A stretch of DNA of 58,715 nt, filler included, from Dugesia japonica (Eukaryota): the NCBI GenBank assembly GCA_001938525.1. It is 5 parts of 5 records of this genome, joined end to end, with 100 filler letters (N's around TTAATTAATTAA, not from the genome) between each part and the next. Parts side by side here need not be neighbours in the genome. Positions count along the whole stretch, not along the records: positions 1 to 12,524 come from MQRL01162220.1; 4 more parts are not named here. One strand, given 5' to 3'. This document shows, piece by piece, positions 1-32,828 of this stretch. Under the pieces are notes generated by a model that was not told where the DNA came from, ran no database searches, and worked only from the letters and a program-made list of their open reading frames with translations. The first letter of the stretch is position 1, and the number at the start of each line of letters is the position of its first letter. The translations under genes and the position numbers were made by a program.

Positions 1-447
1 TGACATCGGTGTCTTTGTTCTATTTTTATTTTCTGGCTGCTGATTGGTCAGATCTTAGAATCCTTATCATACCCTCCAGGAAGGTGGTATGTTTTTTCTT
101 TTTAGGGTCTTAGTTGCACTGGACTATTTTCTTCGCGATTTTTCTTGCTGGAATATTTTCTGACGTCCGGGGCCAGAGTTATCTGTAAAAAACAGATTTT
201 CNNNTAATTTTCGTTTATTTTTTGTTTAAAATTAATTAATTTTTTCTGTATTAATTAATTATTTTTTATTATTGTTTTTCTGGTTGATTCCTTTAAAATT
301 ATTATTAATTTTAATTGTTGATCAATAATGGGTTCATTTCTTCTACACCTTCTTCATTGCATGTTCATTTCTTTTTATTACCACCTTTATGCACTTTATT
401 TCTTTTCTTGATCTATTTTCTACTTTAGTGGGTGTTCCACCCCAACA
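1..447 (-). mobile_element. 5' part of the TGTTGGGG-family element (copy 0), cut by the window edge
   Basis: Ends in ...GTGTTCCACCCCAACA at 447, the reverse complement of the TGTTGGGG terminus. The body aligns by eye with 15150-15659 and with the reverse complement of 2757-3330. Confidence 0.75.
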
Positions 448-812: not shown

Positions 813-1490
813 ATGGCGATGAAAAATGGTGCTTATATATCAACATGAGGCTGCGTAAAGAATGGCTAAGCCCCAACAGAAAAGCAACTTTTCGAAGAAA
901 ACAAGACCTTCATACTCGAAAGATTATTATGTGCGTGAGGTGGGACTGGAAGGCATAATTTATCACGAACTGGTTGGGCGCAACCAAAAAGCTAATGCGG
1001 AGCTCTACGTTAAACAACTGCACCGAGTTAACAAAGCGATTCAGCCAAAAAAACCGAATCGGCAAAACAGTGATCTTCTGCAGCACGACAACGCTCGTTC
1101 TCACATCGTCAATATGACCAAAGAAGCGATTCAAAAACTCATTTGGGAAGTGTTGCCTCGTCCCCCATATTCTCTGGACTTGGCGCCGTCAGAATTTCAT
1201 CTCTTTCGATAGCTTTGAAATGCATTGAGCGGCGTATTATTCAATAATAGCGTGGAATTGAGCTATTGGTTGAACGAATTCTTTGAGTCAAAACCCAAGA
1301 AATTTTATTGCCGAGGCATTGAGAAACTAATTTAACCATGGGAGGCAGTCACCAACAACAACGGAGACTTTATTGTTGACTAATTCTTTGCAATTTCGTT
1401 AAAAATTCATATTAATTTGTGTACTATTCTTTTATATTGTATTCAAATAAAGTTATTTAAAAAACGCTCATGAATTATTACTCAACCAAA
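813..1490 (+). mobile_element. Mariner (DD34D) transposon, 5'-truncated, with disrupted transposase
   Basis: GDEKWCLY at 815, then LQHDNARSH and PPYSLDLAPSEFHLFR in ORF 862-1212. The frame continues past a TAG to ...NNGDFIVD* at 1383. The right TIR AAAAAACGCTCATGAATTATTACTCAACCAAA is followed by TA. Confidence 0.9.
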
Positions 1491-2610: not shown

Positions 2611-3279
2611 TTGTATTTTTATATAATTAAAATTATTTTACATTGGAATTACATCGTTATTTGATTATTGTGTAGTAAAATATTATCATTTTTTAAATTT
2701 CTAATGATAAGCCAATAAAAGGGGATTTAATATATTAATTCTAAATTTGTTACGGTTGTTGGGGTGAAACTCCCAGTCTGAAGGGTCAAAAGGGAAGAAT
2801 TAATAAAGTAAAGGATTAAATGGAAAGTCAATCAGGAACAAAGCACCTATGATGAAAAAGAGATAGTACATACAGCAATCACAAGGAATTAGTTATGAAT
2901 AACCAGTATGACTAAATTAGAATAAAATTAATAATTAAATAAAAGATTAAAAATACCGAGAAGATGGATAAAAAGAACTTGGATGAATAAATCTAAACCA
3001 CATCGATAATAGTACTCAAAAGAAATTATGAAAATAATAATCAAAATAAAGAAAAATTACGAGTGAAAAACCATTAATTACCAAAAAAATATTAATTAAT
3101 TTTGCAAAAAAACAAAGCAAAATTAGTTACGAATTCGTTTTACACATATAACTGTGCTCAGAAGAATCGCAGAGACGCGTAGAAAGAAAATCTGAGAAGA
3201 ACTATAGACGAAGCATTAAGAGTTGAATATTAGAAAATCTTACCACCATCCAGAAGATTGCCACAGGGATTTGAAGATT

Positions 3280-3460
3280 GGGCCAATAAGAAATCTAAAA
3301 ATAAAAATAAAACAAAGAAATGACAATCACATGTCACACCAAAAATAGCCGCCAAAAGACGTGCCAAAAATCTAAAAAATTGGCATCAGAAAATTTAAAC
3401 TAAAAATAAAGACCCAATAACAAGAATGTCGAGTTGTATCCAAAAAGCTATATAAGCCCC
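3280..3460 (+). promoter_or_regulatory. Element-borne RNA pol II promoter (CCAAT boxes plus TATA)
   Basis: CCAAT at about 3284 and 3415. GTCGAGTTGTATCCAAAAAGCTATATAAG (TATA at 3449) is conserved in copy 2 (GTCGGGTTGCATCGGAAAAGCTATAAAA, TATA at 8625) and copy 3 (minus strand, GCCGAGTTGTATCAGAAAATCCTATAAAA, about 14990). Confidence 0.6.
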
Positions 3461-4679
3461 CCCCATTTTAGATGAAACAGACACAATTTTGAGCATAACT
3501 TGGTTAACACAGTTGATATTACTGACAAAATTGTTATCTATAATCAAAGCAGATTTCATTACTTATAAAGAATTTATAATTACGGACTACGGTGTACCAC
3601 GGAAACAACCCATCATAATTGGAACAGCGAAACTAAAGTGTTTTATTCCGATATTTGTTAAATAAAATAATTTCATATTTAACTCCAAGGAATAAATTTT
3701 CAATCTCTGTCAATTGATTCATCTGTTAGAAAACCCTGTTGCAGTTATTCAAAACCTAATAGTAAGTATAAATGTATAGATTTCGATTATTTATGTTATC
3801 ATTTAATTAATAACCATAATAAATGTGTTAATTCATTAAGTTTTGTTTAATTTATTTAAAGAAAAAATGTATTGAATATTTTCTATTAAAAGAAACCACC
3901 TTTCACTCCACTACTAATTTATATGCAAAAACCATGTCGACCAAGAGCATTCTTTTATCACAATCATAAAATTATGCTCGAGCCAGTATGTACATGCGAG
4001 ATGACGCTAATAGTCATGATGACCCGATCTAGATGAACAGCATGTGTGAATAGAGAAGTTGTATTTTTAATTCTTGTCTTTTAAGTACTCGTAATAGATG
4101 AACTAATAATGTAGCTAGACCCCACCGAGACACACAAACCCACAATTAATGTCATATATCACAGCGAAGGAGGCATGCCAGCAAAGCACATTACATCTAG
4201 ACCTCGATGACAAAACAGATAATTGATACAACTGTATTTTCAACACTTATTAGCAAGGGACACTCAGAAATATTAACGCAATAAAATTTGTGATTAACTC
4301 CTACTTGAAATAAGGTGATAATTCAACCCAGCAGGCCAAACAAATGTTTTTCGATAATTTGATCAGTAATTAATTTCAGAAGTTTACAAATGACTCATAA
4401 TTACTACTATAACATAATAGCATTGCTGAGAAAATGGAGACACGCCCCACTAACTCGTGAGTCGTTAAATAATTGTTCACTGTAAGCGGAGTTGTTACAG
4501 ACAAAGTAAAAATTTGTAAGGGTGTCAATCTCACATTATAATCCACCGGTTGTCATAGCCGTACAAATGAGTCTCATACTTAATAAATCTAAATTATAAA
4601 ATTAGGATTGTTAATAATCTTCAGATTACATCCACTATTATTAATCAGAATAATATTACTAGTGGTGCAATATTTATCC

Positions 4680-5040
4680 TTGTTATTTAATTAAATTCCT
4701 ACTATTCCTAATATTGCTATTAATATTATTTCTATTATTTTTATTATTATTACTGTTAGTACTAACATTGATATTATTATTCTTATTATTATTATCATGA
4801 TTAACATTGTTAGTATTGACGTCATAATTATTATTTTCATTATTTATATGAGTACTCTTCTTATTATTACAATTATTAAAATCATTACTATTATGTTTAT
4901 TAATATTATTATAATAATTATTATTATAATTATTAATATAATTATATACCCTAATAACCATCATTATATTATTATTATTATTACTATGGTTATTATGACC
5001 CTGACCATTAAGAGTATGGGTAATAATAGTACTATGACTA
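4680..5040. repeat. Degenerate (ATT)n/(AAT)n tract inside element copy 1
   Basis: Imperfect trinucleotide repeat. Equivalent tracts sit at the same relative position in copy 2 (about 9980-10225) and copy 3 (about 13380-13790). Confidence 0.9.
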
Positions 5041-5191
5041 GCAGCACCACGTTCATTTATATTAACAGTCTTATTTCGTAACCCCAATATTAAATATATC
5101 AGTACAGTTAACCATCCTAACGTTAACTTCCATATAAACTTCCATTATCAATTACATTTTTTTTAGTAAAATATAGTAATTGAATCATTGA

Positions 5192-5539
5192 ATGTCTCAC
5201 GCAGTTGCTCCGACCAAGAAGGTCCGCGAATTCAGTGAGGACTTGGATATGACCTGGGACGTTTATAAGCTGGCCAAACGTCGCATGGGAGACCGACATT
5301 GCGTTGCCGAAGCCAAAGTTAAGCGTTATAGGAATAAATGTTTGGAATTTAAGAATGAGGCCGAGGAATCTCACAACCAAGAAGAGGTTTGGAAAACCTA
5401 GTTAGCATCTCTCACTGCAATCATCTTGTCCTACCAAGACCGAGAGAAAAAACTGGTTGGTGATATTTTAAGATTACAGAAGGCGATGCCACTCGTACCC
5501 CTCATGGTGAATAAGGGAGTCCAGACATCACGGCCGTGA
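5192..5539 (+). pseudogene. Cargo ORF-A, a ~115-aa coiled-coil protein with a C-terminal KGVQT motif (one in-frame TAG)
   Basis: MSHAVAPTKKVREFSEDLDMTWDVYKLAKRR...VKRY...EEVWKT*LASLTAIILSYQDREKKLVGDILRL...NKGVQTSRP*. Homologous at protein level to 13113-12748. Confidence 0.75.
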
Positions 5540-5789
5540 ACTTTGTTCATTTCTTCACTGATAATAAATAATTTTCTTTTCGACTAATTTTTTAGATGAT
5601 TATTTTATTTATGTTCCTTAATTTACTTTAAGCATAAATAAAATAGAATTAATGTCCTCATATTTAGTGCCTCAAATTATCTTCCCTAACCGCTTGAGAC
5701 GTTGCACCGGATAATGCGTCGATTATTATTAGAGACACCTTAAGTGCCAATCAGATCGTGCACTCTTAAAACATCTTTCACAGTGCGTC

Positions 5790-6050
5790 TGATCGCACTG
5801 ATCTGATCGTTAAAAGGCAGAATGATCTAGCGATTCAAACCAAGGAGTTAGAAGAACAGACTAAACAACTACTTCTGAAGAAAATAGATTTCTTAAAACA
5901 GTACATCTCCGACCTATCGCGTCAAATGGGAACCCGACCTGGGTGCAGTGGGATGGTAATGACGACCAATCGAATTTTGACTTCTTAGTTACAGACCCAA
6001 CCCAGTGGTTAGACCCTGGTCGAAATGTAATTATTGCAATAAAATAGTTT
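5790..6050 (+). pseudogene. Cargo ORF-B remnant (coiled coil plus acidic FDF...PTQWLDPG tail)
   Basis: DLIVKRQNDLAIQTKELEEQTKQLLLKKIDFLKQYISDL, then after a frameshift DGNDDQSNFDFLVTDPTQWLDPG. The same tail occurs in copy 2 at about 11380-11465. Confidence 0.5.
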
Positions 6051-7719
6051 AATTTTATGTTTTGATAAGGTTATTTCTTAACATAATAAGGGAAAAAAAT
6101 GAACCCGAAATAAAGGTGTACGAGTGAGAACCTCCCGTAAAGGTAGAAGGTCAACCGCTCTGCACCAAAGATCTAACTTAGGAGCGTTAGATTAAATTCT
6201 TGAAAGGGGATCCTCTGAGGGCCGTTTTTACCAGGCCAACGTTCTTTTTACCATCAACTCAGGTGGAACCCCAACACTATTTAGGAATTTATGACTCAAT
6301 AAATTAAAATGTTTCTTATGTAGACCAATCCGAAAATTTGAATGAAAAATTGATGTGTAGAAAATATTTGAATAAAAATGTATAAAACTATTATTCTTAT
6401 CGATTTATTTGCTTATGTTTAATTGGATTTACCTTAGATTTTTGTTAAATAACGTTTACCTAAAGCCGGTTTTTTCAGTATTATGTCCTTTAATATAACA
6501 TACATCTTTTAGCATATTTCATAGATTCTCAATAACGAAATTCTCAGAATACAATCGCAAAAAACAAAAAAGGAGAAACGGAAGTTTAAGGAACAAATAT
6601 TCACACAAATGGAGTCTTAAGTTATAGTTTAAAAAATAAAGTACGCCTAAGTAGAAAACGGAAAAGTGAAATTTGAATTTGATTTAGATCTGTGATTTAA
6701 CCATTTGATTCGTAATTAAACGTTTTAAGGCAAAACTATTCTTGTATTTGACATTTATATTAAAAAAAAATTAAAAACGAAACTTAGTTAGTTAACAGTG
6801 AGGATTCTGGTTATCAAGTTAAAGTACGAGATAAGAACAAATCGATACTGTTTAGAAATTTAAATCTGTTTTTAAAAGACTATCTTATAATGAGAATACA
6901 TACAAATTTCCGTTATTTATTATAATATTTTAAAAATATGATGATATCATAATATTTTAGGAATATGTCTCAACCTTTAAACAAAGGCAAAAACATAATA
7001 TATAAAATATATTATCATACTATTTCTAGCAACAGGTATCAAAAGACACTTTTCAAATTTTAACTTAACATTATTCTCGAAGTTTAATAATTTCTCTAGA
7101 ATTATTTTATTGACTATTCATACAACAGTTGTTAAATTAATTCAGCGTTATTATTTTACTCCAGCTCATCATGGATCACAATATGTGAAAATAGTATACC
7201 TATTTCTACCATAAGGTGTCTTTTAACACCTTAAAGTTTTTAAAAATTTGTCTAATTTTAAACCGTTTTACATAAACATGTTAACACTATTTTACAGCAT
7301 CATATCAATTTTAATCTGATTAGAGAATCCCGATTTCAGTTGTAAAGGAAAATGTTTGCTTGTTTTTCGTCATGCTGCATTTCACTATAGATCATTACAG
7401 TGACTTTTTCTACGTGTTTTCTTGTCCAATTCTAATAGTGAATTCAGAACACGTGAATGTTGTTTTTATTCATAAAAATTTGAAAAATACATAGTTGAAA
7501 TTAGCATTGCAGGTAAATAAGCACTAATGAAGAGGAAAATAATTTGAATGTAAGTAGAGGACGAAAGAAAATGAGGTTGTTGGTGGATATTGAAGACGAT
7601 AGTGAAAAAATTAATGAACTGAAAAATATTGAAATTTCTGGTAATTGAACAGTTTGGAAAAAAGTGGAAACAGTTTTCTTTCTTGGTAGACAACCTCTTC
7701 ATACCATTTTTAAAGGTGT

Positions 7720-7825
7720 ATTAGATAATAGAGCAACGGGAACGTGCTTGCAGTGCGAAATGTACACGTGCGGAAAATGCACAGTGGATCAACCATTTAT
7801 TTGTAAAAACTGTGGTATCGATTGA
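7720..7825 (+). pseudogene. piggyBac-like C-terminal cysteine-rich domain remnant
   Basis: RATGTCLQCEMYTCGKCTVDQPFICKNC has the CxxC...CxxC...CxxC spacing of piggyBac cysteine-rich domains. Confidence 0.45.
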
Positions 7826-8992
7826 GGTAAAAAATTATAAAAATGCTGTATTATTGATTACTGTTTTTTTTGTTATAAAGATTGAATAATACAATTATAT
7901 TGGAAGTTCGTTAAGTTAGTAATTTTATAATATTTGATTATCTTTATAATAAAAAATGAAGAAGACAATATTTTGCAATTATTGTTCTCGTTATATTATT
8001 CAAATTATTTATATTTAACTAATATTCCGAAATCCCAAGGGTTTTGTCAGTTATTTGCATTTAAACGCGAAGGTGTCAATAGACACCATTTGATCGAAAT
8101 AGGTATACACCATATCGTGGTAGAAATAGTATTACCTGTTCTGTTGAATCTCTTATTTAAGACTCAATTGTTCTTAGTTGATCATGAAGATTTCTTGCAT
8201 ATTATGAGCGCATTATTGAATTATTAATCTAGGTTTACATAAATATTTTTGAAATATTCATGAAAAAGAAACTCTGATCTTTAATCATTTACTAACGATT
8301 GGTAGAGTGATTAATTTATAGCTGGGAACTTCCTTCTATAACTTGGCATAAGTAACTTGGTCAAAAATGCATAAAAAGATTAAAAACTTTTAAAATAGTT
8401 ATAGAAAAGTGTGATAATAAAATCAATAAACATAGAGAAGGGCAAAATTTGCTTCTCTGAAAAACCAAAACAGCACAAAGAAACGACAATCACGTCAAGT
8501 CAAAAATAGAAGCTCCAAAACGCTATGAAAAATCCAAAGAATTAGCACCTGAACCAATAAAACAGTGTTTTCAAACTAAAAATAACTGTCCAATAACAAC
8601 GATGTCGGGTTGCATCGGAAAAGCTATAAAAACCCTTCCGAAAATAAGAAAAATATTATAATAATCTTACCAATTTTCACAATTATCTCATAGGTGAGTG
8701 TGAATCAATAGCAGAACATTTTAATCACCCAGTATCAACATCTGTGTACTTAAATCATTAATTTTGTGAAATAACAAGTTAAGGAAAACAAGTGGTTTAT
8801 CAGTCAAAACGAAGTGAAAAATCAACGATCAATTTCAGTAGTCTACTAATTAATTAAATCTAGCAAATTAATAGAAACAATTTTTAGACGAAGAAATTAA
8901 CAGACCAGTAGGAGAAATTTAGCAATTCGATCCCGATATTCGTATTATTCCTGTTGCAGAAAAAGAAGATTATAGATAAGTAAGCATGCATT

Positions 8993-9842
8993 TGTTGAGG
9001 TACAGAGTACACAGCATGTACAACACGCAGACAGAGAACATAACATCACTGAAATCGTTCAAATCAAGCAATCCTCAAAGTCAATCCAAAATCAGTCAGG
9101 ACAGTTCAATTCAAATCAATTCATCATCAAACCTCGAGCAGATCCCCAAACATTCATATTGATATTGTTTATCTAAAGATCCCCAAACTTCATATTGATA
9201 TTGTTTATTTAATGATTTGACTCTAATTCATATTGATATTGTTTTAGTTTAATTTTGCGGTGTTTGATATTAATTTGATTCAGTTTATTTTGACTATGTA
9301 TTTTAGATTTAAATTTTATAATTTTCAATCTACTATATATTTTGAGAGTAGTTTTTAATTTGGGTTAAAAGAAAATGGAAATTAATTCGGTGTATTAAAA
9401 GAAATATTATTTTTACAGAAATTTATTTATAATGTAATCAATTTTAAAAAAGAATTAATCGAAAAAGGTAAATTTGTAAACAAATATTAAGTTTTATGTA
9501 ATTAATGTGAGTGTATGTGATTGGCAAATTCAGTATAAATACTGAACTAGTTCGTTGTAAATTCAGACATCAGATCTGCGGCACCAGTTCAGATAATTAA
9601 AATTTAGCGCTTTGTATTATACTTGTATACATAATAATATAAAGTTTTTACCAAAAAGTTGTTATTCATTTATTTAGATAAGAAAATCTACAATAAATAC
9701 CTATATTTATAGCATTGAATATTGATTATATAATATTGTATTTACATACACAACTAGTGCGGGTTTTTGTTTGTTATCTCTGTTTTGTAAGTCATTTTAC
9801 TAACGAGCACTTGCATCATACCCGGTTAAGGTTAGGGCTTAC
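8993..9842 (+). mobile_element. Probable nested solo LTR inside copy 2; right boundary uncertain
   Basis: Starts TGTTGAGG. Contains ~36-bp tandem repeats (GATCCCCAAA..TTCATATTGATATTGTTT, 9140-9245), GTATAAATA and AATAAA. The layout resembles 43675-44631. Confidence 0.4.
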
Positions 9843-10553
9843 GTAAAAATGATTAATAATGTACTTATGCCTAAATTAGTGTTTCAGTAACAGCTGTTTT
9901 ATCGGTCTAAATCGCAATATTGAAATTGATTCACTTTTACATTAACTGGTAGCATTATTTTTTGTGATATATGATTCCTATGAATATTATTATTGATATT
10001 ATTACTATTATTAGTATTATTATGTCTATTTATTTATACCATTATTATGATTATTATTACTATGACTATCATCATTATTAATATCTCTTAATATTATCAG
10101 CATCATATTGCATTATCACATTATTATGATTATTATTATTTTTATTTATTAATATCAGTACTTTTATTATTAGTATTGTCACTATTACTATCATTATTCT
10201 CATTATACTTATTAATATTCTAATACTTGGGTTCTCATGGCCACCACGACTTCAATTATTGGCAAGGACCGTGCTGAATTTTTAATAGGTGCCAATATAA
10301 GTTCGATACCTCTTCTAATATGAACTCCCATTTGCACGGTCTATTAATTTTAGTGTTGATACAACTCCCAATTTCTCTTGTTATATAACAACGACCGGAA
10401 TTACCGTGATTTCCCCTAGCATCCATATGGCTGGTGGCAATAGTTATGCGTAAAAATTAAAATCAACAATATTTTCATTGGTGAATTTGCCTCAAAAGAG
10501 TGACTTAGTAAGATTAATCAAAATTAGCTTTTAATCGCATTATTATTTAGATT

Positions 10554-10736
10554 ATGCCATTGGAGTTGAGCAATGCGTTACGCATGATTTGTAAACAGCG
10601 TAAGACCTCGCGATTGAGACAATTTGTAGCACATTTACTGTCTCATGGTAAGACAGAACATCCCGACGATACTGATCTCAAGTGTTTCATTGAGATGTTC
10701 CTACTAGAATCTCAGGTGGATCTTGATGAGGAATAA
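10554..10736 (+). CDS. Cargo ORF-C, 60-aa protein of unknown function in copy 2
   Basis: Intact ATG-to-TAA ORF with coding-like GC content and an acidic tail, preceded by TTTAG (possible acceptor). No homolog recognised. Confidence 0.35.
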   Translation: MPLELSNALRMICKQRKTSRLRQFVAHLLSHGKTEHPDDTDLKCFIEMFLLESQVDLDEE

Positions 10737-10922
10737 TAATGCATCCGCATACTGTAATCTCAATTACCACTATGGTTTGATTTAAATAAAGATAAAAAAA
10801 TATGGTTTAATCTTCACTCTAAATTCATTATATCATAACGTGTTATTCTTTCATTATTATATTATGAATCATCTCATCACAACTTAATATATTTAAAATA
10901 CTGTTAGAAATAATATTACTAG

Positions 10923-11317
10923 ATGGAATTCGTATGGGAGACATTATTCGATAAACGCACTAATAGAGTAGTTTTTCGCAGGTATTGGAATCCTTATGAT
11001 CAAATTATTACTCTAATTTGTAAAGTATAGATGCGGAGAACGAATGAGAGTGGGCTGTGGCAGGGCACCAGGCCTTTTACCAGTGGACTGGACCTGATCG
11101 TACGCGAAAGGTTCTTCACCGCAATACAATCATAGATCCGGTAACTAACAAGGTTACTAGTGTGTGGTGAGACGGTTCTGTGTTTATACCCGTGTCGACC
11201 GCACATTTACCACCGAATACTAGATTAGTTGCAGACCTAGGTAACACTCTATGGGACCTGAGAAACATTGCTGCAGGCGGTGAATCAGAAAATAACGCAC
11301 CAAACAATGTAGCTTAA
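10923..11317 (+). pseudogene. Cargo ORF-D remnant in copy 2
   Basis: MEFVWETLFDKRTNRVVFRRYWNPYDQII, then after a frameshift EWAVAGHQAFYQWTGPDRTRKVLHRNTIIDPVTNKVTSVW*DGSVFIPV...NNVA*. GC-enriched island. Confidence 0.4.
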
Positions 11318-12294
11318 AGACGATAATTAATTTTCTAAAACTTTACGGTTGTTAGGTAATGTGGCATGTCTCAGCTAAGATGATACTGACGATTCGGTGT
11401 TGTTCGACTTTATACCAGAAGGGCCTACCCAGTGGTTAGACCCGGGTAGTTTAGATGAATTGTAATTACAAACTAATATAATTATTATTAATATTTCGTT
11501 TATTTATTTGACAATTGAAGTAATAGGGAAATATATGATCACAAACCAAAGGTGTACGAGTGTGAACCTCCCGTAAAGATCGAAGATCAACCTCTCTGCA
11601 CTGAATATCTAATTTAGGGACATTAGATTAAATTCTTGATGGGGCCCCCGAGGGCCGTTTTTCCCCGGCCAGCGTTCTCTTTCATCATCAACTCAGGTGG
11701 AACCCAAACACAAATAATATTTCGTAGTTATTTAATTATAACATTTTATTTAAAAGGTAACTGAAACTAATATAACGTTAATAGAATATAAGCTTAATAT
11801 TAATAATGCGCCAATATAAACAAAAAATCGATTGAGAAAAACTTCACCGAAATTTATTGGAAAATGATATGAACATGGCCCTCCATATTTAGAGTACATA
11901 TCTCCTAGTTATTCGATATTGCCAGTGCAGCGATACATGGGAATAATTTTTGGATTTTTGCATCTTTTATGTTTTTCTTGTAGAGAATCATATTTTGGTT
12001 TTAATGATATTTTCATGATTTTCCGGAACATTTCAATGATGCATGTTGATATAAGTTGTTCGTTTTTTATTTGTTAGTTTTTAAAAACTTAATCTTAATA
12101 AAAATTTAAAAGGAAAGTATTTTTTGATGGAACTGTTAGATTTTTCACTGTCGACGGTAAAGTTGGATCTGTACTGAAGTTAGTTAAATTTGTTTTATTT
12201 AGTTTTTTGTTTTCAATGGTTCCAGTGAACCTTTCGTCTAGGAATGTTTCAAGCTTTTAACAAACTCAATAACATATTTTTTCAGATTTTCTAA

Positions 12295-12338
12295 GCTGTA
12301 TATATACTATATATGATACATCATGCGTTTAAGGGTTA
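12295..12338 (+). mobile_element. piggyBac-like right terminus
   Basis: ...GATACATCATGCGTTTAAGGG followed by a TTAA target site. Confidence 0.4.
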
Positions 12339-12446
12339 AAGTAGTCCGTTAAAGCGAAAAGATGTAAAAGAGTCTGTTTAGCAAGTTACGGGTATATTAA
12401 CATATATATAAAAAGTATTGTAATTGAATATAAATATTATATATAT

Positions 12447-15400
12447 TGTCGGGTAAACACGACACTTGAGCTCTATTCAATTTGAATATAACTAAATATC
12501 TGACTGAGTTCAATAAGGTGCGTCNNNNNNNNNNNNNNNNNNNNNNNNNNNNNNNNNNNNNNNNNNNNTTAATTAATTAANNNNNNNNNNNNNNNNNNNN
12601 NNNNNNNNNNNNNNNNNNNNNNNNATAAACAAACATCAACTAAGGAAATAATGAATGCTATCAGCATCGAAGTTATTAGAAGTTTAATGATAATAAAACA
12701 TAGACCAAGACTAAGGTACACAAAATTTTATTTAAAGGATAGAGGGTTTAACCACGAGAAGGGGACTGTGTTTGGGTGCCCTTAGCAATCATAAGAGACT
12801 CCAAGTATGATTTAGTCTTAAGAAGCAGGATATCTTTGACAAGTTTATTTTCACGGTCATGGCTGGACCGGATGATTTCAGCGAATGATTCTACTTGTGC
12901 CTTCCACGCTTTCTCTTGTTCCTGTACAATTTTCATCTCCTCGTGGACGTTCGTACACTAAGTCTTATATCGTTTCACCTTAGCGTTGGCCGTGGCGGTT
13001 TCTGCTTCCCATCGCCGCTTAGCTAATCTGTATAAATCCCAGGTAAGCTCTCTGTCTTTGCTATCCTCCCTTAATTTCTTAGTCGGGGCCTGTGGTCGAT
13101 TCAATGACGAATGCACTGAAATATAAACATTAAAAGGAATGGTTCATCTTACCAGATGTTTAGATCTATCGAAAAACCCCGTAGGATGTCGTACCACATC
13201 AATACCGAGCGGGGTTATCACATAGTTTAGTGCCCACGTTACTCCATGTTATTATTATTTTAATTTTTAGAAGAAAGCAACTAAAACAATAGCCAATTAT
13301 TACTACCAGAATTTGTTGGAAAGAATGACAATAGAATGACAAAAGAAAGACAATCTATGAATTTTGTCGATTGTATTGACTATAACTGATAATGCCAAGT
13401 GTGATAACGATAATTTTGATTTAGGATACTAATAATAAACCGATAATTATCAATATCAATGAGGATATTAATTACATTAAAGTGACAACAACGGTAACGA
13501 TAATACTGATTTTAATAATGTAGTTTTAATACTAATAATAATAATAACAATAGTATTACTAACAATGCCATCGATAATGAAAGTGATACTAATAGTAATA
13601 ACAATAACATTAATGGTACTATGGATATCACCACGAGTGATGTCACTAGCATGATAATAAGGGTAATGATTTTAACCGTTATAATTTCAGTAATTCTATC
13701 AATAATAGGACTACCATTAATAATAATAATGCGAGTACCATTAATGTTAAAAATAGTAATAATAACCATAGTACTCCTAATATCAGACTTGTAATGAACA
13801 AGTTAAGAAAGCCACAATCCTATCAATTATGAGGAATTTAAATTTCTACTGGGTTACATAATTCAATTTTCCGCGCCGTGTGGTTACTTAGGAACATTCC
13901 ATGGTGATATGATTATGGAAACTTTATTTGGGTTGGTGTGTGTGGACAGCGTTCCGTGGTAGGTGTGTTTGGCCGACGTGAACTCAACAGTCAGTATTAT
14001 ATAACAACTCACTTATCAGAGCATGCACACGCTAACTAATNNNNNNNNNNNNNNNNNNNNNNNNNNNNNNNNNNNNNNNNNNNNNNNNNNNNNNNNNNNN
14101 NNNNNNNNNNNNNNNNNNNNNNNNNNNNNNNNNNNNNNNNNNNNNNNNNNNNNNNNNNNNNNNNNNNNNNNNNNNNAATTGATGAAAAACATTAGACATC
14201 TCAATGGATTTTTTCTTTACGGATTTTCGGGTAATTTGTGGTTTTGGTTAAATAAATGATCATCATTACAGTGTTTTTCTCCTTTAATTGTTTTGAATGT
14301 TTGAATTACGGTCACAAAAATAAACCGATTTATTTTTCAGTTTTGGGTACAGATTTCTGTATTCTTAATTAAATAATGTCTAATTTAGATTAACACTCAA
14401 ATATCTCGCTACTACTTATTCAATTTACGGAGTGATAGAGTGGGAATCATCTCCATTTATTTTGAGTTAGAGAGCGAAATTTTGTTATTTAAAAGGTGAC
14501 GTTGCGTCTAAATTGATATGTTTATGTGAAAAGAAAATTAACATCAAAATCTTCATATATAAGAATTTATTACCATAAATAATATATAATTTTATCATAA
14601 TATAACATTTATCATAAACAAAATAATATTTGACTTTTTATTAGTGACTAAAAGATTTCTGCAACGGGTTTTGGTTTTGTTTTGAATAGTTAATTTACTT
14701 GGCAATTCCGGATTTGGTTCCTGGGATCTGATATTCCGTTATTTTCCTTTTTCTTTAAAGAAAACGAAATTAACCACACACAAATAGGAATTTAAATTAC
14801 TCTAGTTTTCCGATATATCACGACAAATTGGTGCGCGATAACTAGTTATTAAGTTTCGTTTGAGAATTGAACCGTTAATTTTCTTGACCATGAGTTAATT
14901 TGGACGATTCGCAATTAAGTTTTCACTAATTATTTTACGTACGTGGATATGCAAAAATTTGTAGTTGTTTCTGCTAAAATCATGGGTCCTTTTATAGGAT
15001 TTTCTGATACAACTCGGCAGCATTCTCATTGGCGAGTATTTTTATTTCAAAACTTTAGAGTTTCATTGGTGCCAGAGTTGTAATTTTGGAATTTTTGTAG
15101 AGTTTAAGAACTCTGATTGGTGAGTATTTTTAGAGGGCCATGTGATGGTTTCTTCTTTGTTTTATTTTTATTTTTAGGTATCTGATTGGTTCGATCTTGG
15201 AACCCCTACAGCACCTTTCCGGATGATGGTAAGTTTTTTCCTCTGAAAGTTCTTAATGACCCTTGTCTTTCTCTTCTGGAATTTTTTTGTGCCGTCGTTC
15301 TGTGATGTTTTGATACAAAGTTATTTGCATAAAACGGATTTTGACTTCATTTTTTTTTATTTTTGAAATTAAATTAATTAATATTCCTTGATAATTAAAT

Positions 15401-15659
15401 TGTTGATTAAATAATTTTCTTATTCATAAATAATCATTTGATAATTTTTTCTTAATTGGATATCTTGACGGGCTGGTCAATTTATTTGAATTTATTATTG
15501 TCAGCTTTCTTCATTTAATTCTTGGTTTACAACTTAATGGTTGTTTTTCTGTCTTCTTGCGTATTCCCTTGGTAGTAAATGTTTGGGTTTTTATTGTTTT
15601 TCTTGATGGATTTTGAGTTTGGCTTTGTTGCCTTTCTGGGCATGTGTTTTACCCCAACA
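12447..15659 (-). mobile_element. TGTTGGGG-family element, copy 3 (crosses a scaffold spacer at 12525-12624)
   Basis: CCCCAACA terminus at 15659, promoter at about 14990, TGCAAC at about 14660, AAT tract and an ORF-A homolog. The candidate far terminus TGTCGGGTAAACAC at 12447 has flanks TATAT/TATGT but lies across the spacer. Confidence 0.7.
12748..13113 (-). pseudogene. Cargo ORF-A homolog with KGTQT motif (one in-frame TAG)
   Basis: HSSLNRPQAPTKKLREDSKDRELTWDLYRLAKRRWEAETATANAKVKRYKT*CTNVHEEMKIVQEQEKAWKAQVESFAEIIRSSHDRENKLVKDILLLKTKSYLESLMIAKGTQTQSPSRG*. Preceded by TTTCAG (candidate acceptor). Confidence 0.75.
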
Positions 15660-15724
15660 TATGTATTGTGTGTTTTATAGTATATTCTTGATTTTAATTG
15701 TAATTTTATATATCAGGTTTCTCT

Positions 15725-15905
15725 TAACTGATATTACCGATCATATTTTCTCGAGCATTTCTTAATCCTTGAGAATCATTTTCTCGAATTTGAAATCTCT
15801 GTTCTTCACGCATTTTCACACGATAATTTTGCATATATTCTGCTCGTCTGCGTTTTCTTTCAGCATTATCTTTTGCTTCTAACTTTCTTTTTGGTGGATT
15901 TTTTT
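15725..15905 (-). pseudogene. Helitron-like RepHel N-terminal remnant
   Basis: PPKRKLEAKDNAERKRRRAEYMQNYRVKMREEQRFQIRENDSQGLRNARE resembles the charged N-terminal repeats of animal Helitron proteins. Confidence 0.35.
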
Positions 15906-16386
15906 CAAATATATTTCTTTTAAATGGTTTGACTGTCTTTTATAATCAATTATATTGTCCCTTAAACGGTCAAATTTTTAGGTAATTGATATGGATTAGT
16001 TCCAAGTAGTAAGGAGAGTAGGATGAGAAAGGGGAGAGTTATACTTGATGAAAAAAGTTAAAACAAAGAAGTATAGAAATTGAGAATGACTTTATTAAAT
16101 GAAAATTATTTTCATAATTAAAGAATTTAAGAACCACTGTAAGCAATAATTACAAAGTTTATTTAATTAATTAAAATAAAAAAATTTATGAAAATATTTT
16201 AAAAAAAACATTAAAAATTTCATTTAAAAATAAATAGTATTAAAAGAATCAAACAATTTTTATGATAAACAAATTAAGGATATTAATATCATTAATTAAA
16301 TTAAAAATATTTACAGTGATATATATTTTACAATTGCAATTATTGCGAGAATAATTGTTGTACGTAACCATTGATCGTTTTTCGAA

Positions 16387-17842: not shown

Positions 17843-19036
17843 ATGAATAGATCCAGAAAAGAAAAGCCATCGAAACATTCGCCATTTGTTGAGAAACTTA
17901 AATGCAGGCGTAGTACGAGAATTCAAAATCAAAAGTTTGAAGTTTTTAGAAAATGATTGAAAAATATGAATTTATTGTAGTGAAATAGATGGCACTTTTC
18001 AATCTTCTAAATCTTTAGTTATGTCAACTCCTAAAAAGACAAATAGACACACCGGGCCATTGCATGATATCTCACATGAAACTGGGAGTGTTTTATCAGT
18101 ATTTAGGTTTATTTGTAAGTACTTATTAATCGATGAGTTTAGAATTCATCTCTAAAAAGATATCATAGAAATTATGATCCTGATATTGAAATTAGACAAG
18201 TAAATGAGCGTCTTAGTAAACGTTTAAGTAATAGTTGGGCTGATCAATCTATATTAAATGATGAGGAGGAGGAAGATTTTATTAAATATTCTGAAAAACT
18301 GCGGAAACATCAAGTGATAAATTAATACGTGCTCGTAATAATATTTGTTTCTAGAAAAATATTAAGCTTGAGGATGATGTTGATGTTTTGGCTCGTCGTC
18401 AAAACGATATAGATAAAGGAAAGTCTAAACAATGTTACAAAAATTATGTTTATGAAATTGCTAAGGAACGTCGAAAACCTTTTCAGCCTCGAACACCAAA
18501 TAAATTTCTGAAAATGAGCAGGCGAGGTTGGGATGGCTTAGTAAGAAAATGGAAAAAGCATATTCATGCATGGAATGAGCCGAAGTTTGTGTTTAATACC
18601 CAAACCTTAACTTTTTATTTTAATTTTTAGATTCGAGGAACTATATGCAGCAGGAATAGAAGTTGACTGTTGTAATAGTGATGTGGCATCCATCGCGTCT
18701 TTTAAGGAGAGTTTGATTGAGTTTGACGATAACAAAGATAGTATTAAAGAAGTATTTAGTGAAGAAGAAGAAACATTACAAGTAATGTTTTACAATCTAG
18801 GTATATTTTTATGTTTTAGGGAGCAAAAACTAGAAAAAGAATATTATCTCCTATTTTAAAAGAGGAATTGACAGATGACACTATTCAAAATTCATTGTAA
18901 GTCGTTCAAAAATATTGATATGTTATAATTAAATTTTAGACCTAAATTAGTTGATCTACATAGTGGATTGACAAATGATGCAGCAGCATTAAATATGAAT
19001 TCAAATAAGCGAATTAAATTATCCGAGTTCAAATAA
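17843..19036 (+). CDS. SLBP: Histone RNA hairpin (stem-loop) binding protein, 7 exons, 311 aa
   Basis: Exons 17843-17934, 17981-18098, 18143-18313, 18355-18584, 18631-18781, 18820-18896 and 18940-19036 splice at GT-AG introns into a stop-free 936-nt ORF. RNA-binding domain LARRQNDIDKGK..CYKNY...PRTPNKFLKMSRRGWDGLVRKWKKHIHAWNEP with TPNK; upstream SWAD motif; acidic segment after the domain. Confidence 0.92.
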
Positions 19037-19402: not shown

Positions 19403-19927
19403 TCTACAAGAACTATAGAATTTCGAACTACACTTGGGATTTTCCACCATTCTACCGGATTCGACCCCGAATGGACCCTCATATTCGAGTAATTTTACTG
19501 TTTAGTCCTCAATGTCTACCCAATCGATAGTAGTATGCTGTCTTATTTTTGTATTTCCGGCACAATCTGCGTCGATGGGACCACCCATTGTTATGGCTTC
19601 TGCCAATGTCTTCCTGATTTCTGCCTTTAATGAAACTTGATTATTTATTTTTAACTTTCCTGTTCTAAAAGCATCTTGACGGTCTTCTGGTTACACATTG
19701 GCTGATCTTGGTATAAGTTTTGCTGACAACACTGTTGTACGACTATGAACATCACAATAGTATTCAAATATTGCTTTTTGTACTTGATACTCGGTTTCTT
19801 GATAAATATAATATTTAGCTAGTTGGGCAACCTGCAATCTTGTAGGATACGCTTCCCTACATTCCATTGCATCTATTAGCGAATAAATTCCTGCTGGGCT
19901 AGGATTATGACAATCGTAAGCAATCAA
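19403..19927 (-). pseudogene. Chuvirus-like / herpes gB-like (class III) envelope glycoprotein, N-terminal ectodomain, degraded
   Basis: Single frame with two internal stops: LIAYDCHNPSPAGIYSLIDAMEC...YIYQETEY...YYCDVHSRTTVL...QDAFRTGKLKI...DADCAG...DWVDIED*TVKLLEYEG...KCSS. Motif order matches chuviral G (LIxYDC, SLxDxxEC, YYCGMHSH, RxHxTG, CxG, WxxVxxQ). Confidence 0.7.
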
Positions 19928-21666
19928 CCTATTGGTTTGCCTTAATTTATCCATCATCATTAGTATTGTTTGAGTAGGATTCTCTAATCCTCTCATTGTC
20001 TGCTGTAATCTATTTGCTGGTTCGAAGACAAGTATTTCGTTATTTTTCATATTAATTTCATACCTTGGGGCTTCGCTATTTTGGCGTGTTTGTTCGTTCC
20101 ATTCGTTGGAATTAACTATCCATTATCAAATATCGTTGACAGCTTTGCAACTTTCTGTTTTAATTTTCTGGTACTATTTGCACTTAATAATGAATTCCGA
20201 ATAATCATTGCCAATGCTGTTAAAGCCCGTCCATTTGTAACGCATTTGGCAGCTAACGTATGTATTGTGTTCCTGGTATTTTCATCAGGCAATTTCCTTG
20301 GTAACTTTCTAATGATTTTTTGTGCTTGGATCCCATCGTCAAACTTTTTCAATTTTTAACTCAGGCTTTAGTGACCTGATTAATTGCAGAATTTTAAAGC
20401 ATGTGTCTGACATGGCTGGTTCATTCTATACATCACCTTGGTCGATTTCATCAATTATAGCATCTAATGCCCTATATCGGATTTTTCTGGCAACGGTTCC
20501 GCCCACCGAATCGACATTAGTATTCTTTTTTGGTCTACCTCTCTTTTGTCAACCATTTGTTATCTTCTCTCTGCTGGTTCTCTAGAAGTTGATTCTCCCA
20601 GATTGTTACCTTGTACGTTTCTGATATTACTTGTATCTCTAGAGAATATTTTTCGTGGTATATTCGGTAACTCGACCGGTTCTGCCTCATCCAAATCCCC
20701 GGGATTCCTTGATTTTGTTGAGGAATATTTATTTCCTCCTCATGCACTATTTGTAATTCTTTATTCTGTAAATCCTCAGATACTTCTGGCAATCACAACA
20801 TAGTCCAATGGCGATCCCATGGCTCCACCATCAACACATTGACTAGTGTAATTTTAGTTGGTAAACAGCCAACATCAACTTGGTTACCCCAAATTACTAT
20901 CCAAAATGTTTGCGGGTATGTTATTTCGATATCCGTTTTCAGCTTCAGTACCCTTGTAAAACAAGAGTATATCTTTATTTGTGGTACCACTTCACCTGGT
21001 ACTCTTATATCGACTATAAACGATGCCTGTCTGGCTGCATCATGCCTTATGGATTCTCCATTTTTATAATTATCATTCGAATTTCATTTTGATAACTGCT
21101 TGGTTTATCAACCAGTGATAATATCAATGGCATTACCTCTTTTAAAACTTCAGTTGAGATATGTAACGTCAACATCCAACTTAATATGCTTTTAATGTCT
21201 TCATCCCATCTTGGGACTGAAAATATCTCATTTCCTAATTTCTGTATAATAGAGTGAGCGTCTTGTAACTTCCATATGTCCCATAGCAAATGTGCTATCT
21301 GGGGTGATAGTAGCTACTTCCACTACTTTCTCTTTAGCTTGTATCTTGGTTTTTATCTCAAGTAATATTCCACATAACAACCGATATTTATCTATGTCTA
21401 ATTTTTTGTCATACAAATACAGATCAAATACTCTGCGTTTGATCTTTTTCAGATAAGCTATTATTTTAGCTACTGGCTCTTTTACATCTAATTCCAGAAG
21501 TACTCTGCCTCTTTTTGGTAATTGTATCTCCAACTGAGCCTTTTTAAAATCCCAGTCGCACTACATTTTTTAACCAATTTTTCTGCTTATTTCAGTAATT
21601 TCTTTATAATAAGTCTTCTTGGGTCTGACTTTAGATAATATCTGCATTATATTATCTAACTTTTCC
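19928..21666 (-). pseudogene. Degraded polyprotein of unknown domains preceding the env-like segment
   Basis: Chain of intron-free, frameshift-linked ORFs (21533-21228, 21289-21047, 20990-20793, 20792-20535, 20352-20116, 20050-). Includes an AT-hook-like KRGRPKK at about 20530-20548. Cut by the scaffold spacer at 21667. Confidence 0.55.
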
Positions 21667-21766
21667 NNNNNNNNNNNNNNNNNNNNNNNNNNNNNNNNNN
21701 NNNNNNNNNNTTAATTAATTAANNNNNNNNNNNNNNNNNNNNNNNNNNNNNNNNNNNNNNNNNNNN

Positions 21767-24700: not shown

Positions 24701-26783
24701 TATGCGTTAATATCAGAACCACTCAGTGGCATGCTGCGAAAGGAGAACAAATTTACATGATCAGATGACAATAAACAATGTTTCTACGAACTCAGAGAGA
24801 GACTTACAAAATCACATATATTAGGTTACCAATAAAAGATGGTAAATACATTTTGGATACCGACGCATCACATAATGCAATCGATGCTGTATTGTCACAA
24901 ATACAAAATGGAAAAGAAAAAGTTCCTAATTATAATTCAAAAACCTTATCAAAAAGCCAGAAACAATATTGTATTTTTCAAACATAGATATTAGAATAGA
25001 ATTATTAGCTATTTATACGTTTATTATGAAGTTCAAACCTTACCTAATTGGTAAGCCATTCGTGGTGTGAACAGACCATCATGCGTTAAAATGGATGCTC
25101 AATTGGGATAGTCCAAATACATCACAGTATTGTATTTGGAAAGCAGAGCCAGAAGTATTCGACATGATAGTAGAATTTCGAAAGGGTAAAGAACGCATAA
25201 ATGCGGATGTTCTATCTAGACTACAAGACTGCGAACAATGCATGATCAAACATTTTGAACCTAAAAAAAACTAAACGTCAAAGTAAATCTCATAAAATCA
25301 AATGGGGAACAAAATCATCTCAGAAAAGGTATTGAACAATATAAAAGATAATAATAACGAATGGCAACAGGAAAATGATCCCATTATCAAATTAATACTT
25401 AAAGCTTTAAATAAAATAAAGCTTTAAAGACTATTTTCTGGTAGTACCAAATCATAAAAGAGAAGAAATTATTTAAAAATACTTTAAATTGTTGAGTCAC
25501 ACTAGAATGAAAAAAACTGCAGAAGTTATACAAAGAGAATATTACTGGCTCTCATTATAAAAAGATGTGCAAAATATAATTGCTAAATGTAATCCATGTA
25601 ACCACAACAAGTATCTTAACGGAAGGATTAAAGCACCATTGCAAAACATCACTGGATACGAACCATTTCAGATTATAGGAATGGATATTACAGGATTATT
25701 TAAAGAAACAAAGAAAGGATACAAATATATACTGGCTGTAATAGACTATTTTTCAAAATATATCAGTTTGATTCCACTAAAGATAACAACTTCTTAAGTC
25801 ATTTGTGATGTTCTATGAGAACACTGGAAATCTAAATTTGGAATACTGGAGAAAATCCATTCAGATAGAGAAAGTAATGTTTGCTCTAGAATATTCCGTG
25901 AATATTGTAGAATATTAAAATACGGAAAACATTTACGTCACCGTACTACCCTCAATGCGACGGGTTGGTAGAAAGCCTATTTAGAACAGTGAAGCCCATG
26001 ATAAGCGCAGTTATGAAAGACAGAGAAATCATGGAATGGAGCTCGACATTACCTATAGTAGAATACGGCATTCAAAATAAAATACAGAAAACAATCAGAT
26101 ATTCACCATATCAAATCCTGTTTGGAGGAAGACCGAAATTGACCTATGGAATATCGCAAACACTAACAAAGACAAACCAAACTCAGAAGAATACGTAGAA
26201 AACATGGAGCAAAAAATAAAGATAATACATAATAAAGTGCAAGACACTATTGAATATCACAATATTAAGAAACAAGAAAATTATAACAGAAATTAATGGA
26301 GCAATGAAATCGTGTGTGGAGACAAGATAATGATCAAATTCTAAGAAAATAGAGCACTTAAACGAAGATACATTAGGCAGTTTGTACTTAAAGAAATAAA
26401 AGATAAATAAACTTTTATTTTACAAAACGGAAATAATACAATACAAAAAAACTAAAATCAAATCAAAAAGATTCTCTAAGACACAGAGCTATAAATCAAT
26501 CAGCGAAAAAACGTCAATAAGAAAACGAATTAACCCTAAACAAGAGGAAGAAGATCAAACAAAAAGGCGCTGCCCAATGCGAGCTACCAGGAATCCGAAC
26601 CCAAAGTACAGATGATCAAAGAGAGGGGTGTGATATAAATTGAAATTAAATTCAATTTATATTGAAATCAAAACATGAAAAAACCAAAAATATTAAAACT
26701 TTGTTTTAATATTGATTGTTATGAAATATATATGTTTACTTATCTATTAGTCGTATCTTTTATTTATATTGATTTTAGAATTT
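21767..26783 (+). mobile_element. Near full-length decayed Ty3/Gypsy LTR retrotransposon
   Basis: The 5' LTR ends CTTACA at 21878. PBS TGGCGTCACG (tRNA-Ser-like). Gag has CFECEKEGYIARVC, protease MFDTG, RT SPWNFPIVVVKKK and YLYD(D), RNase H DTDAS, integrase HHCC/GMDITG/HSDR/YYPQCDGLVE. PPT AAAGAGAGGGG. The 3' LTR 26629-~26783 shares TTTACTTATCTATTA.TCGTATCTTT with the 5' LTR. Confidence 0.92.
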
Positions 26784-32700: not shown

Positions 32701-32828
32701 AGGTTAAATAATATTAACAATGAATGCCNNNNNNNNNNNNNNNNNNNNNNNNNNNNNNNNNNNNNNNNNNNNTTAATTAATTAANNNNNNNNNNNNNNNN
32801 NNNNNNNNNNNNNNNNNNNNNNNNNNNN

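What the first reader, a model, noticed from the sequence alone, without database searches (positions are those of the whole stretch)
5192..5539. Conserved element-encoded coiled-coil protein ending in a dynein light chain LC8-type TQT motif
Seen: copy 1 (5192-5539 +) and copy 3 (13113-12748 -) encode alignable proteins despite divergent DNA. APTKKVREFSEDLDMTWDVYKLAKRR aligns with APTKKLREDSKDRELTWDLYRLAKRR; AKVKRY is identical; DREKKLVGDILRL aligns with DRENKLVKDILLL; NKGVQT aligns with AKGTQT. Many differences are synonymous. Each copy has a different single nonsense codon that is a sense codon in the other, and copy 1 has a short compensated +1/-1 frameshift, so an ancestral ~115-aa ORF can be rebuilt. 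Established: KxTQT next to a coiled coil is the canonical LC8/DYNLL binding motif, used by viral proteins such as rabies virus P. Inference: this is a selected accessory protein that may recruit LC8 for dimerisation or transport.
Basis: partly seen in the sequence, partly recalled or inferred. Interest (0 to 1): 0.8.

Follow-up and report, generated by a model that had tools for sequence, protein, structure and literature searches.

The report
Transposon-end gene with dynein-light-chain docking motif
A decayed small gene that was once under selection sits inside a 3.5-kb, many-copy mobile element (likely the lone terminal repeat of a giant retrotransposon); its protein is predicted to form a paired coiled coil whose tails would likely grip the host hub protein LC8, which is untested.

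Summary
The two ORFs align without gaps at 53 of 110 residues. Synonymous sites are saturated (pN/pS 0.39), each copy has its own stop, and copy 1 has an eight-codon register shift. The stop in copy 1 is not shared by most other genomic copies.

New here is the setting. Copy 1 lies in a 3,520-bp element (2757-6276) with TG...CA ends, a 9-bp terminal inverted repeat, a CCAAT/TATA promoter block and an AAT tract. It interrupts another repeat with an imperfect 4-bp duplication. The window holds four copies or parts; 1,967 contigs of one DNA run lie on the stretch laid. This looks like a solo LTR of a giant Ty3/gypsy element, but gag-pol, PBS and PPT were not seen.

No homologue was found in any library. 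Models give a long helix that ends just before the motif, and a parallel homodimer (0.46 against best control 0.02). Both motifs fit published LC8 rules, but only copy 3 is strictly KxTQT. The start codon is not shared. LC8 could not be co-folded, so binding is inference (about 55%).

The parts
2757..6276 (+). Element copy 1, complete, 3,520 bp; TG...CA ends; likely solo LTR
   Evidence: sharp 3' end at 6276 in 53 contigs with heterogeneous flanks
2757..2765 (+). 5' terminus, 9-bp inverted repeat with 6268-6276; same 9-mer begins copies 3 and 4
   Evidence: 4 exact matches in the window, 0.19 expected; complementarity stops after 9 bp
2753..2756 (+). Candidate 4-bp target duplication, paired with 6277-6280; 2 of 4 letters differ
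   Evidence: both flanks align to an uninterrupted repeat at 1491-1788 (left score 129, best of 300 shuffles 95)
3066..3480 (+). Conserved promoter-like block: CCAAT boxes (3283, 3414) and TATA box (3448-3456); U3-like
   Evidence: aligned in copies 1, 2, 3 and partly 4; 293 of 452 columns identical between copies 1 and 3
4718..4996 (.). Degenerate AAT/TAT tract, also in copies 2 and 3; decays about equally at all three positions, so probably not coding
5192..5539 (+). ORF1, copy 1: basic N-terminal helix, long coiled coil, C-terminal motif; register shift at 5285-5308, stop at 5399-5401; likeness to copy 3 starts at 5207
5510..5527 (+). LC8-type motif NKGVQT (positions -4 to +1)
   Evidence: rules from PMC6607443
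5700..6047 (+). Decayed second ORF; acidic C-terminal block ending PTQWLDPG is shared with copy 2
   Evidence: 16 of 31 residues identical, E 5e-8; no Pfam match
6089..6276 (+). Conserved terminal block (U5-like), very high copy
   Evidence: 76.5% identity over 294 columns to copy 2; depth peak; no Rfam match
8460..11710 (+). Element copy 2: promoter block, AAT tract, second-ORF end and 3' terminus; lacks ORF1; 5' end not found
12625..15659 (-). Element copy 3: 5' terminus, CCAAT boxes, TATA (14997-14989), AAT tract, ORF1; 3' end lost at an assembly gap
12748..13113 (-). ORF1, copy 3; stop at 12960-12958; motif AKGTQT at 12786-12769; no ATG in frame
1..447 (-). Element copy 4, 5' end only; runs off the window

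Best explanation
This is a decayed, formerly selected accessory gene inside a 3.5-kb high-copy element that is likely the solo long terminal repeat of a giant Ty3/gypsy retrotransposon; its protein is predicted to form a parallel coiled-coil dimer whose two C-terminal tails would likely bind one host LC8 dimer. Shown: element ends, promoter-like block, many divergent copies, purifying selection, motif position. Predicted: helix and in-register dimer. Inferred: transcription from the element's own CCAAT/TATA promoter (possibly spliced, since no start codon is shared), LC8 binding, and LC8 acting as a clamp that stabilises the dimer so that the basic N-terminal helices can act on the element's RNA or DNA. 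My step odds: selected protein 0.95, solo LTR 0.7, dimer 0.75, LC8 binding 0.55.
For: Selection: pN/pS 0.39 with saturated synonymous sites. Element: 9-bp inverted termini at 4 of 4 exact window matches, insertion into another repeat, CCAAT/TATA block in three copies, ORF at a like offset from the 5' end (2,450 and 2,570 bp). Copies: 1,967 contigs of run X1 laid, 103 of them 99%+ alike and 754 under 90%; 14 contigs (depth 252 of 290) read another letter at the first base of copy 1's stop. Fold: helices 21-50 and 54-110, coil from 111 where the motif starts, mean pLDDT 84. Dimer of the stop-free C-terminal 69 residues of copy 3: score 0.46, best of 3 controls 0.02, runs agree in at least 94% of contacts, pLDDT at least 81; the mark was reached by 21 of 30 microbial homodimers and 0 of 23 single chains, on eukaryotes by 17 of 29 (animals 7 of 16) and 0 of 30; contacts are in register and end two residues before the motif. 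Motif: polar or Ala at -4, Lys at -3, VQT/TQT anchor, no Pro or aromatic inside (PMC6607443 passages); chance 0.6% and 1.3%. At the -4 codon 21 contigs (depth 268 of 307) differ from copy 1, and the variant belongs to the residue class that paper names as favoured there. Precedent: LC8 sites beside oligomer domains in Ebola VP35 and rabies P (PMC8615749 passages).
Against: No LC8 co-fold or binding test. Many anchor-bearing peptides do not bind. The motif was picked after the fact from many possible short motifs; the same pattern occurs 8 times in 117,426 six-frame residues of the window, 6 of them elsewhere. The tail is not more conserved than the body, and core positions are only modestly more conserved (7 of 12 against 11 of 28). 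The dimer mark was reached by only 1 of 7 eukaryote pairs with no solved relative, so a generic coiled coil may pass from memory; pTM of the monomer is 0.42. No paired LTR, gag-pol, PBS or PPT beside any end, and the duplication is only 2 of 4 identical. Copy 2 lacks ORF1, and a deletion form that removes it stands in runs X1 and X7, so the gene is dispensable or family-specific. RNA support is thin: 36 of 13.6 million and 2 of 11.6 million records, none 99% alike, no splice joint, no silent-stretch control.
Confidence: 0.42

Rival explanations
1. A selected basic coiled-coil regulator of the element (Rev/CERV-like RNA export factor, or a bZIP-like transactivator of the LTR promoter); the QT tail is incidental and binds nothing.
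For: The best conserved blocks are the basic N-terminal ones and the coiled-coil core, not the tail. A conserved AG 8 nt before the shared upstream 9-mer, behind a T-rich run, could be a splice acceptor; CERV of Cer1 is made from a spliced mRNA (PMC10309623 passages).
Against: No likeness to any family (weak Myc hit E 0.8 only). Both copies keep K, G, Q and T and stop within 3-6 residues of the motif, and the -1 change (V/T) stays within the allowed anchor set. This rival can also hold together with LC8 binding.
Confidence: 0.3
2. The 3.5-kb unit is not an LTR but a non-autonomous DNA transposon (Ginger-like or unknown) carrying a cargo gene; the protein's role is as above or unrelated to movement.
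For: TGTNR ends and 4-bp duplications are shared by Ginger and Gypsy (PMC2836005 passages). No retroelement internal region was seen next to any copy. ORFs inside an LTR are unusual (own knowledge).
Against: Ginger repeats are about 40-270 bp; here complementarity is 9 bp. No transposase-sized ORF (longest stop-free frames 153 and 128 aa, both in the AAT tract). The promoter position fits U3.
Confidence: 0.15
3. An LC8 decoy: the protein is made in quantity to soak up LC8 and weaken an LC8-dependent host silencing or antiviral complex.
For: In Drosophila, LC8/Cut-up dimerises the Panoramix silencing complex through TQT motifs (PMC7861614 passages). LTR elements are prime PIWI targets in planarians (PMC8532177 passages).
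Against: Panoramix has no clear homologue outside insects. The host is not identified. LC8 is abundant (own knowledge) and RNA support here is low.
Confidence: 0.08
4. A captured last exon of a host gene, or the end of a longer element protein, so the unit studied is a fragment.
For: No shared start codon; possible acceptor site.
Against: HMMER over 1.84 billion representatives with no length limit found no relative. Selection acted between two element lineages at matching positions in the element.
Confidence: 0.05

Closest known systems
Burro/GYPSM1 giant Ty3/gypsy retrotransposons of planarians (PMC6431247, section 7 read whole)
   Same: Thousands of copies, internal region up to 25 kb and total over 30 kb, which implies LTRs of several kb; accessory ORFs; AT-rich host; env related to mononegavirus fusion proteins, and a weak fragment of that kind lies elsewhere in this window (PF24664, E 0.0034, below cut-off).
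   Different: No sequence comparison was possible; host not identified; the text read names no ORF inside the LTR and no LC8 motif; the primary paper (Grohme 2018) was not held.
Viral LC8 clients: Ebola VP35, rabies P, HPIV3 P (PMC8615749 passages)
   Same: Short anchor motif in a disordered stretch; in VP35 it lies next to the multimerisation domain.
   Different: These are polymerase cofactors of RNA viruses with measured binding; no homology here; the motif here follows the coiled coil at the very C-terminus.
Prototype foamy virus Gag (PMC3705263 passages)
   Same: A reverse-transcribing element protein that binds LC8 in a coiled-coil-dependent way.
   Different: A structural Gag of a vertebrate retrovirus, not a small accessory ORF; no TQT motif in the passages read.
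CERV of C. elegans Cer1 (PMC10309623 passages)
   Same: Novel accessory protein of a Ty3/gypsy element from a spliced mRNA.
   Different: Function shown (RNA export); Cer1 LTRs are about 490 bp, too short to hold such a gene; no homology found.
Ginger1/Ginger2 DNA transposons (PMC2836005 passages)
   Same: TGTNR termini, 4-bp duplication, 2.6-7 kb.
   Different: 40-270 bp inverted repeats and an integrase-like transposase, both absent here.

Membership tests
LC8/DYNLL client | Anchor triplet (T/V/I)-Q-T | tested here: met
   VQT and TQT (rule from PMC6607443)
LC8/DYNLL client | Flanks: polar or at most Ala at -4, large residue at -3, no bulky aromatic at -2, no internal Pro, no hydrophobic at +2 | tested here: met
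   N/A, K, G, and S/Q at +2; the favoured P/D/E at +2 is absent
LC8/DYNLL client | Motif in a disordered, accessible stretch | tested here: met
   Model only: coil from residue 111, pLDDT 58 falling to 45; the hydrophobic -5 to -8 residues end the helix
LC8/DYNLL client | Anchor conserved across many copies | tested here: inconclusive
   Two copies keep Q and T; no variant row for the K, Q or T codons among 40 rows shown, but 194 rows were not shown
LC8/DYNLL client | Physical binding to LC8 | not testable with these tools
   No tool gave a eukaryotic LC8 sequence; LC8Pred not available
Ty3/gypsy LTR (solo) | TG...CA ends with a short inverted repeat (TGTNR) | tested here: met
   pattern from PMC2836005
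Ty3/gypsy LTR (solo) | 4-6 bp target site duplication | tested here: inconclusive
   4-bp length from the uninterrupted site, 2 of 4 letters match; only copy 1 has both ends
Ty3/gypsy LTR (solo) | U3 promoter near the 5' end | tested here: met
   CCAAT boxes and TATA at matching places in copies 1-3; activity not tested
Ty3/gypsy LTR (solo) | Occurs in direct pairs around gag-pol with PBS and PPT | not testable with these tools
   No genome held; none beside the five ends in the window, as expected for solo copies
Burro/GYPSM1 | Planarian host and sequence likeness to Burro LTRs | not testable with these tools
Ginger1/Ginger2 | 40-270 bp terminal inverted repeats | tested here: not met
   9 bp
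Ginger1/Ginger2 | Integrase-like transposase ORF | tested here: not met
   No long ORF in the element; no Pfam match in the pieces scanned
Penelope/Terminon-type element | Hammerhead ribozyme at the 3' end | tested here: not met
   Rfam scan of 3000-16000 to E 5: one chance match only

The most novel reading that the evidence does not exclude
Giant retrotransposon LTRs in this animal are self-contained gene cassettes: each solo LTR carries its own promoter and swappable accessory genes, one of which makes an LC8-clamped coiled-coil dimer that hijacks the same hub PIWI silencing uses in flies, a transposon-encoded counter-defence that survives loss of the element's body.
Probability: 0.1. Interest if true: 0.88.

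Novelty: new variant of a known kind. Interest (0 to 1): 0.55.

Why it matters
LC8 hijacking is known from viruses, and LC8 serves the host side of transposon silencing in Drosophila. My paper searches listed no LTR-retrotransposon accessory protein with an LC8 motif. A selected gene inside an LTR would also mean that solo LTRs, usually treated as inert promoters, can keep coding capacity in many copies. The claim is cheap to test with two short peptides. If binding fails, what remains is an orphan accessory ORF in a large LTR-like repeat, of interest mainly to transposon specialists.

Tried and rejected
Homologue searches all blank: 5.8-billion word search with copy 1 (2 candidates, none at E 0.01); HMMER profile of both copies over 1.84 billion representatives (0 at E 0.001); viral contigs (142 pattern hits, 0 confirmed); metagenome contigs (112, 0); PDB sequences (1 hit, E 0.8); Pfam (best E 0.04, far below cut-off); Foldseek viral (0 of 54 at E 0.001); terminal 20-mer in viral contigs (0). 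A two-sequence profile has limited reach. Earlier scan notes: nothing in 4 look-ups. No RNA holder listed among indexed runs. The language-model atlas was not searched for this protein. Element sequence motifs are in no held paper.

Rejected: the AAT tract as a coding Asn- or Ile-rich ORF (all three positions decay alike); a ribozyme in the terminal block (two-sequence folds show 2 compensated pairs of about 40 on either strand, too few to judge); the terminal 190 bp as a short LTR of its own (no direct repeat at the 5' end); copies 1 and 2 as the two LTRs of one element (24% apart, different ORF content, no gag-pol seen between). Host identity: the SLBP search gave an unnamed 92% relative and a beetle at 52%; 'planarian-like' is my recalled impression from base composition and repeat types, not a result.

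Full report
Observation. The two frames exist as described. Read with X at the stop they give 115 aa (5192-5539) and 121 aa (13113-12748) and align without gaps at 53 of 110 residues, E 2e-33; no other copy of the ORF is in the window. The stops are at different codons (5399-5401; 12960-12958). Eight codons of copy 1 (5285-5308) are out of register. Only copy 3 has strict KxTQT; copy 1 reads KGVQT. The ATG at 5192 has no counterpart in copy 3, so the start is open; an AG 8 nt before a shared 9-mer, behind a T-rich run in both copies, may be a splice acceptor (inference).

Selection. DNA identity is 177 of 330. Dropping the 8 shifted codons, identity by codon position is 59, 77 and 32 of 102, and 33 of 52 identical residues have different codons. 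pS is 0.85 (saturated, so dS is undefined), pN 0.33, pN/pS 0.39 with bootstrap 0.28-0.52; with all codons 0.44. This is purifying selection between two element lineages, followed by decay of these copies.

The element. Copy 1 runs from 2757 to 6276 (3,520 bp), begins TGTTGGGGT and ends with its reverse complement. That 9-mer occurs 4 times in the window against 0.19 expected, each time at an element end: 2757, 6276, 15659 (copy 3) and 447 (a fourth copy that leaves the window). Complementarity stops after 9 bp, and the two ends share no long direct or inverted repeat. Copy 1 interrupts another repeat whose uninterrupted form is at 1491-1788; the junction implies a 4-bp duplication with 2 letters changed. 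About 690 bp in, copies 1, 2 and 3 share CCAAT boxes and a TATA box. Then follow poorly conserved DNA, a degenerate AAT tract, ORF1 at 2,450 and 2,570 bp from the 5' end, a second decayed ORF whose end is shared by copies 1 and 2 (16 of 31, E 5e-8), and a conserved terminal block. Copy 2 has other sequence in place of ORF1. TGTNR ends are those of Gypsy LTRs and Ginger transposons, but Ginger has 40-270 bp repeats (PMC2836005 passages). I read the unit as a solo LTR (about 0.7). No PBS, PPT or gag-pol lies beside the five ends present, and no genome was held to look for paired copies.

Other copies and RNA. I laid 4 of the 24 listed runs on 5010-6400 at 80% likeness. Run X1 gave 1,967 contigs (103 at 99%+, 357 at 95-99, 753 at 90-95, 754 under 90), so many divergent copies exist; summed depth is no copy number, and X1 may be the source sample. 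53 contigs leave the window sequence behind 6276 with unlike flanks (agreement 0.47), confirming the end. Depth rises about eightfold at 5198, where protein likeness begins. Fourteen contigs (depth 252 of 290) read another letter at the first base of copy 1's stop; two contigs and six X17 reads part from copy 1 at 5284-5285, so the breaks look private. At the motif's -4 codon 21 contigs (268 of 307) differ, toward the residue class favoured in LC8 binders; no row for the K, Q or T codons is among the 40 shown, but 194 rows were hidden. A deletion form skipping 5185-5837 stands in X1 and X7. Raw RNA: 36 of 13.6 million records in X17 (30 under 90% alike, none 99%) and 2 of 11.6 million in X20; the first mate lies mostly on the minus strand, which would mean sense RNA in a usual stranded library. 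There is no splice joint and no silent-stretch control. This suggests low transcription of relatives, not of copy 1.

The protein. No relative was found by sequence or fold. AlphaFold2 on the two-row alignment gives helices 12-17, 21-50 and 54-110 and a coil tail from 111, where KGTQT begins (mean pLDDT 84, pTM 0.42). Two copies of the stop-free C-terminal 69 residues of copy 3 scored 0.46 against a best control of 0.02 (3 controls), with runs agreeing in at least 94% of contacts and pLDDT at least 81. The mark was reached by 21 of 30 microbial homodimers and 0 of 23 single chains; on eukaryotes by 17 of 29 (animals 7 of 16) and 0 of 30, but by only 1 of 7 without a solved relative. Contacts are like-with-like (18, 22, 25, 29, 39, 43, 46), so parallel and in register, and end at residue 57, two before the Lys. 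Of 12 core positions 7 are identical between copies, against 11 of 28 others.

The motif. By PMC6607443 (outline and passages) binders have a T/hydrophobic-Q-T anchor, a large residue at -3, a polar residue or at most Ala at -4, no bulky aromatic at -2 and no hydrophobic at +2. NKGVQTS and AKGTQTQ both comply, without the favoured P/D/E at +2. Such a pattern appears in 0.6% and 1.3% of 20,000 shuffles of each protein, and 8 times in the window's 117,426 six-frame residues. The same paper reports many non-binding TQT peptides and 7 of 19 matrix predictions confirmed. The last 20 residues are 8 of 20 identical, no more than the whole. Binding therefore stays an inference, about 0.55.

Mechanism. 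Most likely the element's promoter makes an RNA from which a small basic coiled-coil protein is translated; two chains pair in parallel, which would present two motifs side by side to an LC8 dimer, and LC8 would clamp the dimer rather than haul it along microtubules (hub role: PMC7861614 and PMC8615749 passages). The basic helices would then act on the element's nucleic acid. The chief rival is the same protein with an incidental tail, working like CERV of Cer1 (PMC10309623 passages).

Known systems and novelty. Burro elements of planarians are the closest setting: thousands of copies, over 30 kb with LTRs, accessory ORFs and an env-like region (PMC6431247, section 7 whole). Membership could not be tested: the host is unidentified and the primary paper was not held, so it or its supplements may already describe ORFs in these LTRs. 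For PMC8532177 I saw passages and the supplement list only; for PMC11410931, PMC12057147, PMC3705263 and PMC5408684 passages only. Searches for a retrotransposon accessory protein with an LC8 motif or an ORF inside a gypsy LTR listed none by title or abstract start; subscription papers are not covered. Foamy virus Gag binds LC8, so reverse-transcribing elements have a precedent.

Verdict. A real, selected orphan gene in a large LTR-like repeat, with a credible but unproven LC8 site. New variant of a known kind; interest 0.55.

Noticed in passing
window 5818-5850 (+): The second decayed ORF of copy 1 has another LC8-like anchor (DLAIQT) directly before a short coiled-coil-like stretch; copy 2 has no such anchor in its plus frames.
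   Followed up: partly
window 6089-6276 and 11525-11710: The terminal block holds a 7-bp hairpin with one compensated pair and a GC hairpin; two sequences cannot show structure; no Rfam match.
   Followed up: partly
window 18100-19030 (+): Host histone stem-loop-binding protein gene (PF15247, E 4e-23) with what look like very short introns; nearest relative P0003 at 92% over the domain.
   Followed up: partly
window 19694-20122 (-): Fragment with a weak match to Monjiviricetes-type fusion glycoprotein (PF24664, E 0.0034, below cut-off), within decayed ORFs at 19500-21700; may be an env-like retroelement piece. Not linked to the LTR-like copies.
   Followed up: partly
window 21823-26781 (+): Decayed element with a 50-bp direct repeat at both ends (92%) and gag/pol-like frames; the Ty3/gypsy label is my reading of the sequence, with no Pfam hit obtained.
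   Followed up: no
window 34133-36593 (-), 41146-41551, 43296-44867: Protein-primed polymerase B fragments (PF03175, E 3e-12) in at least two copies, Polinton/adintovirus-like by recall.
   Followed up: no
window 859-1212 (+) and 47820-48152 (-): Mariner-type (PF01359) and hAT (PF05699) transposase fragments.
   Followed up: no
window 10551-10733 and 10923-11314 (+): Copy 2 carries different decayed ORF pieces where copies 1 and 3 have ORF1; no Pfam match. Suggests swappable cargo.
   Followed up: partly
window 54325-54516 (-): A one-mismatch match to the element's 5' terminus with a short AAT tract about 110 bp downstream; no further likeness seen.
   Followed up: partly
window 12525-12624, 21667-21766, 32729-32828, 45790-45889: 100-bp gaps made of 44 N, a 12-bp spacer and 44 N; at the two gaps read, the spacer is a stop-in-all-frames linker. 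An assembly artefact that cuts copy 3.
   Followed up: no
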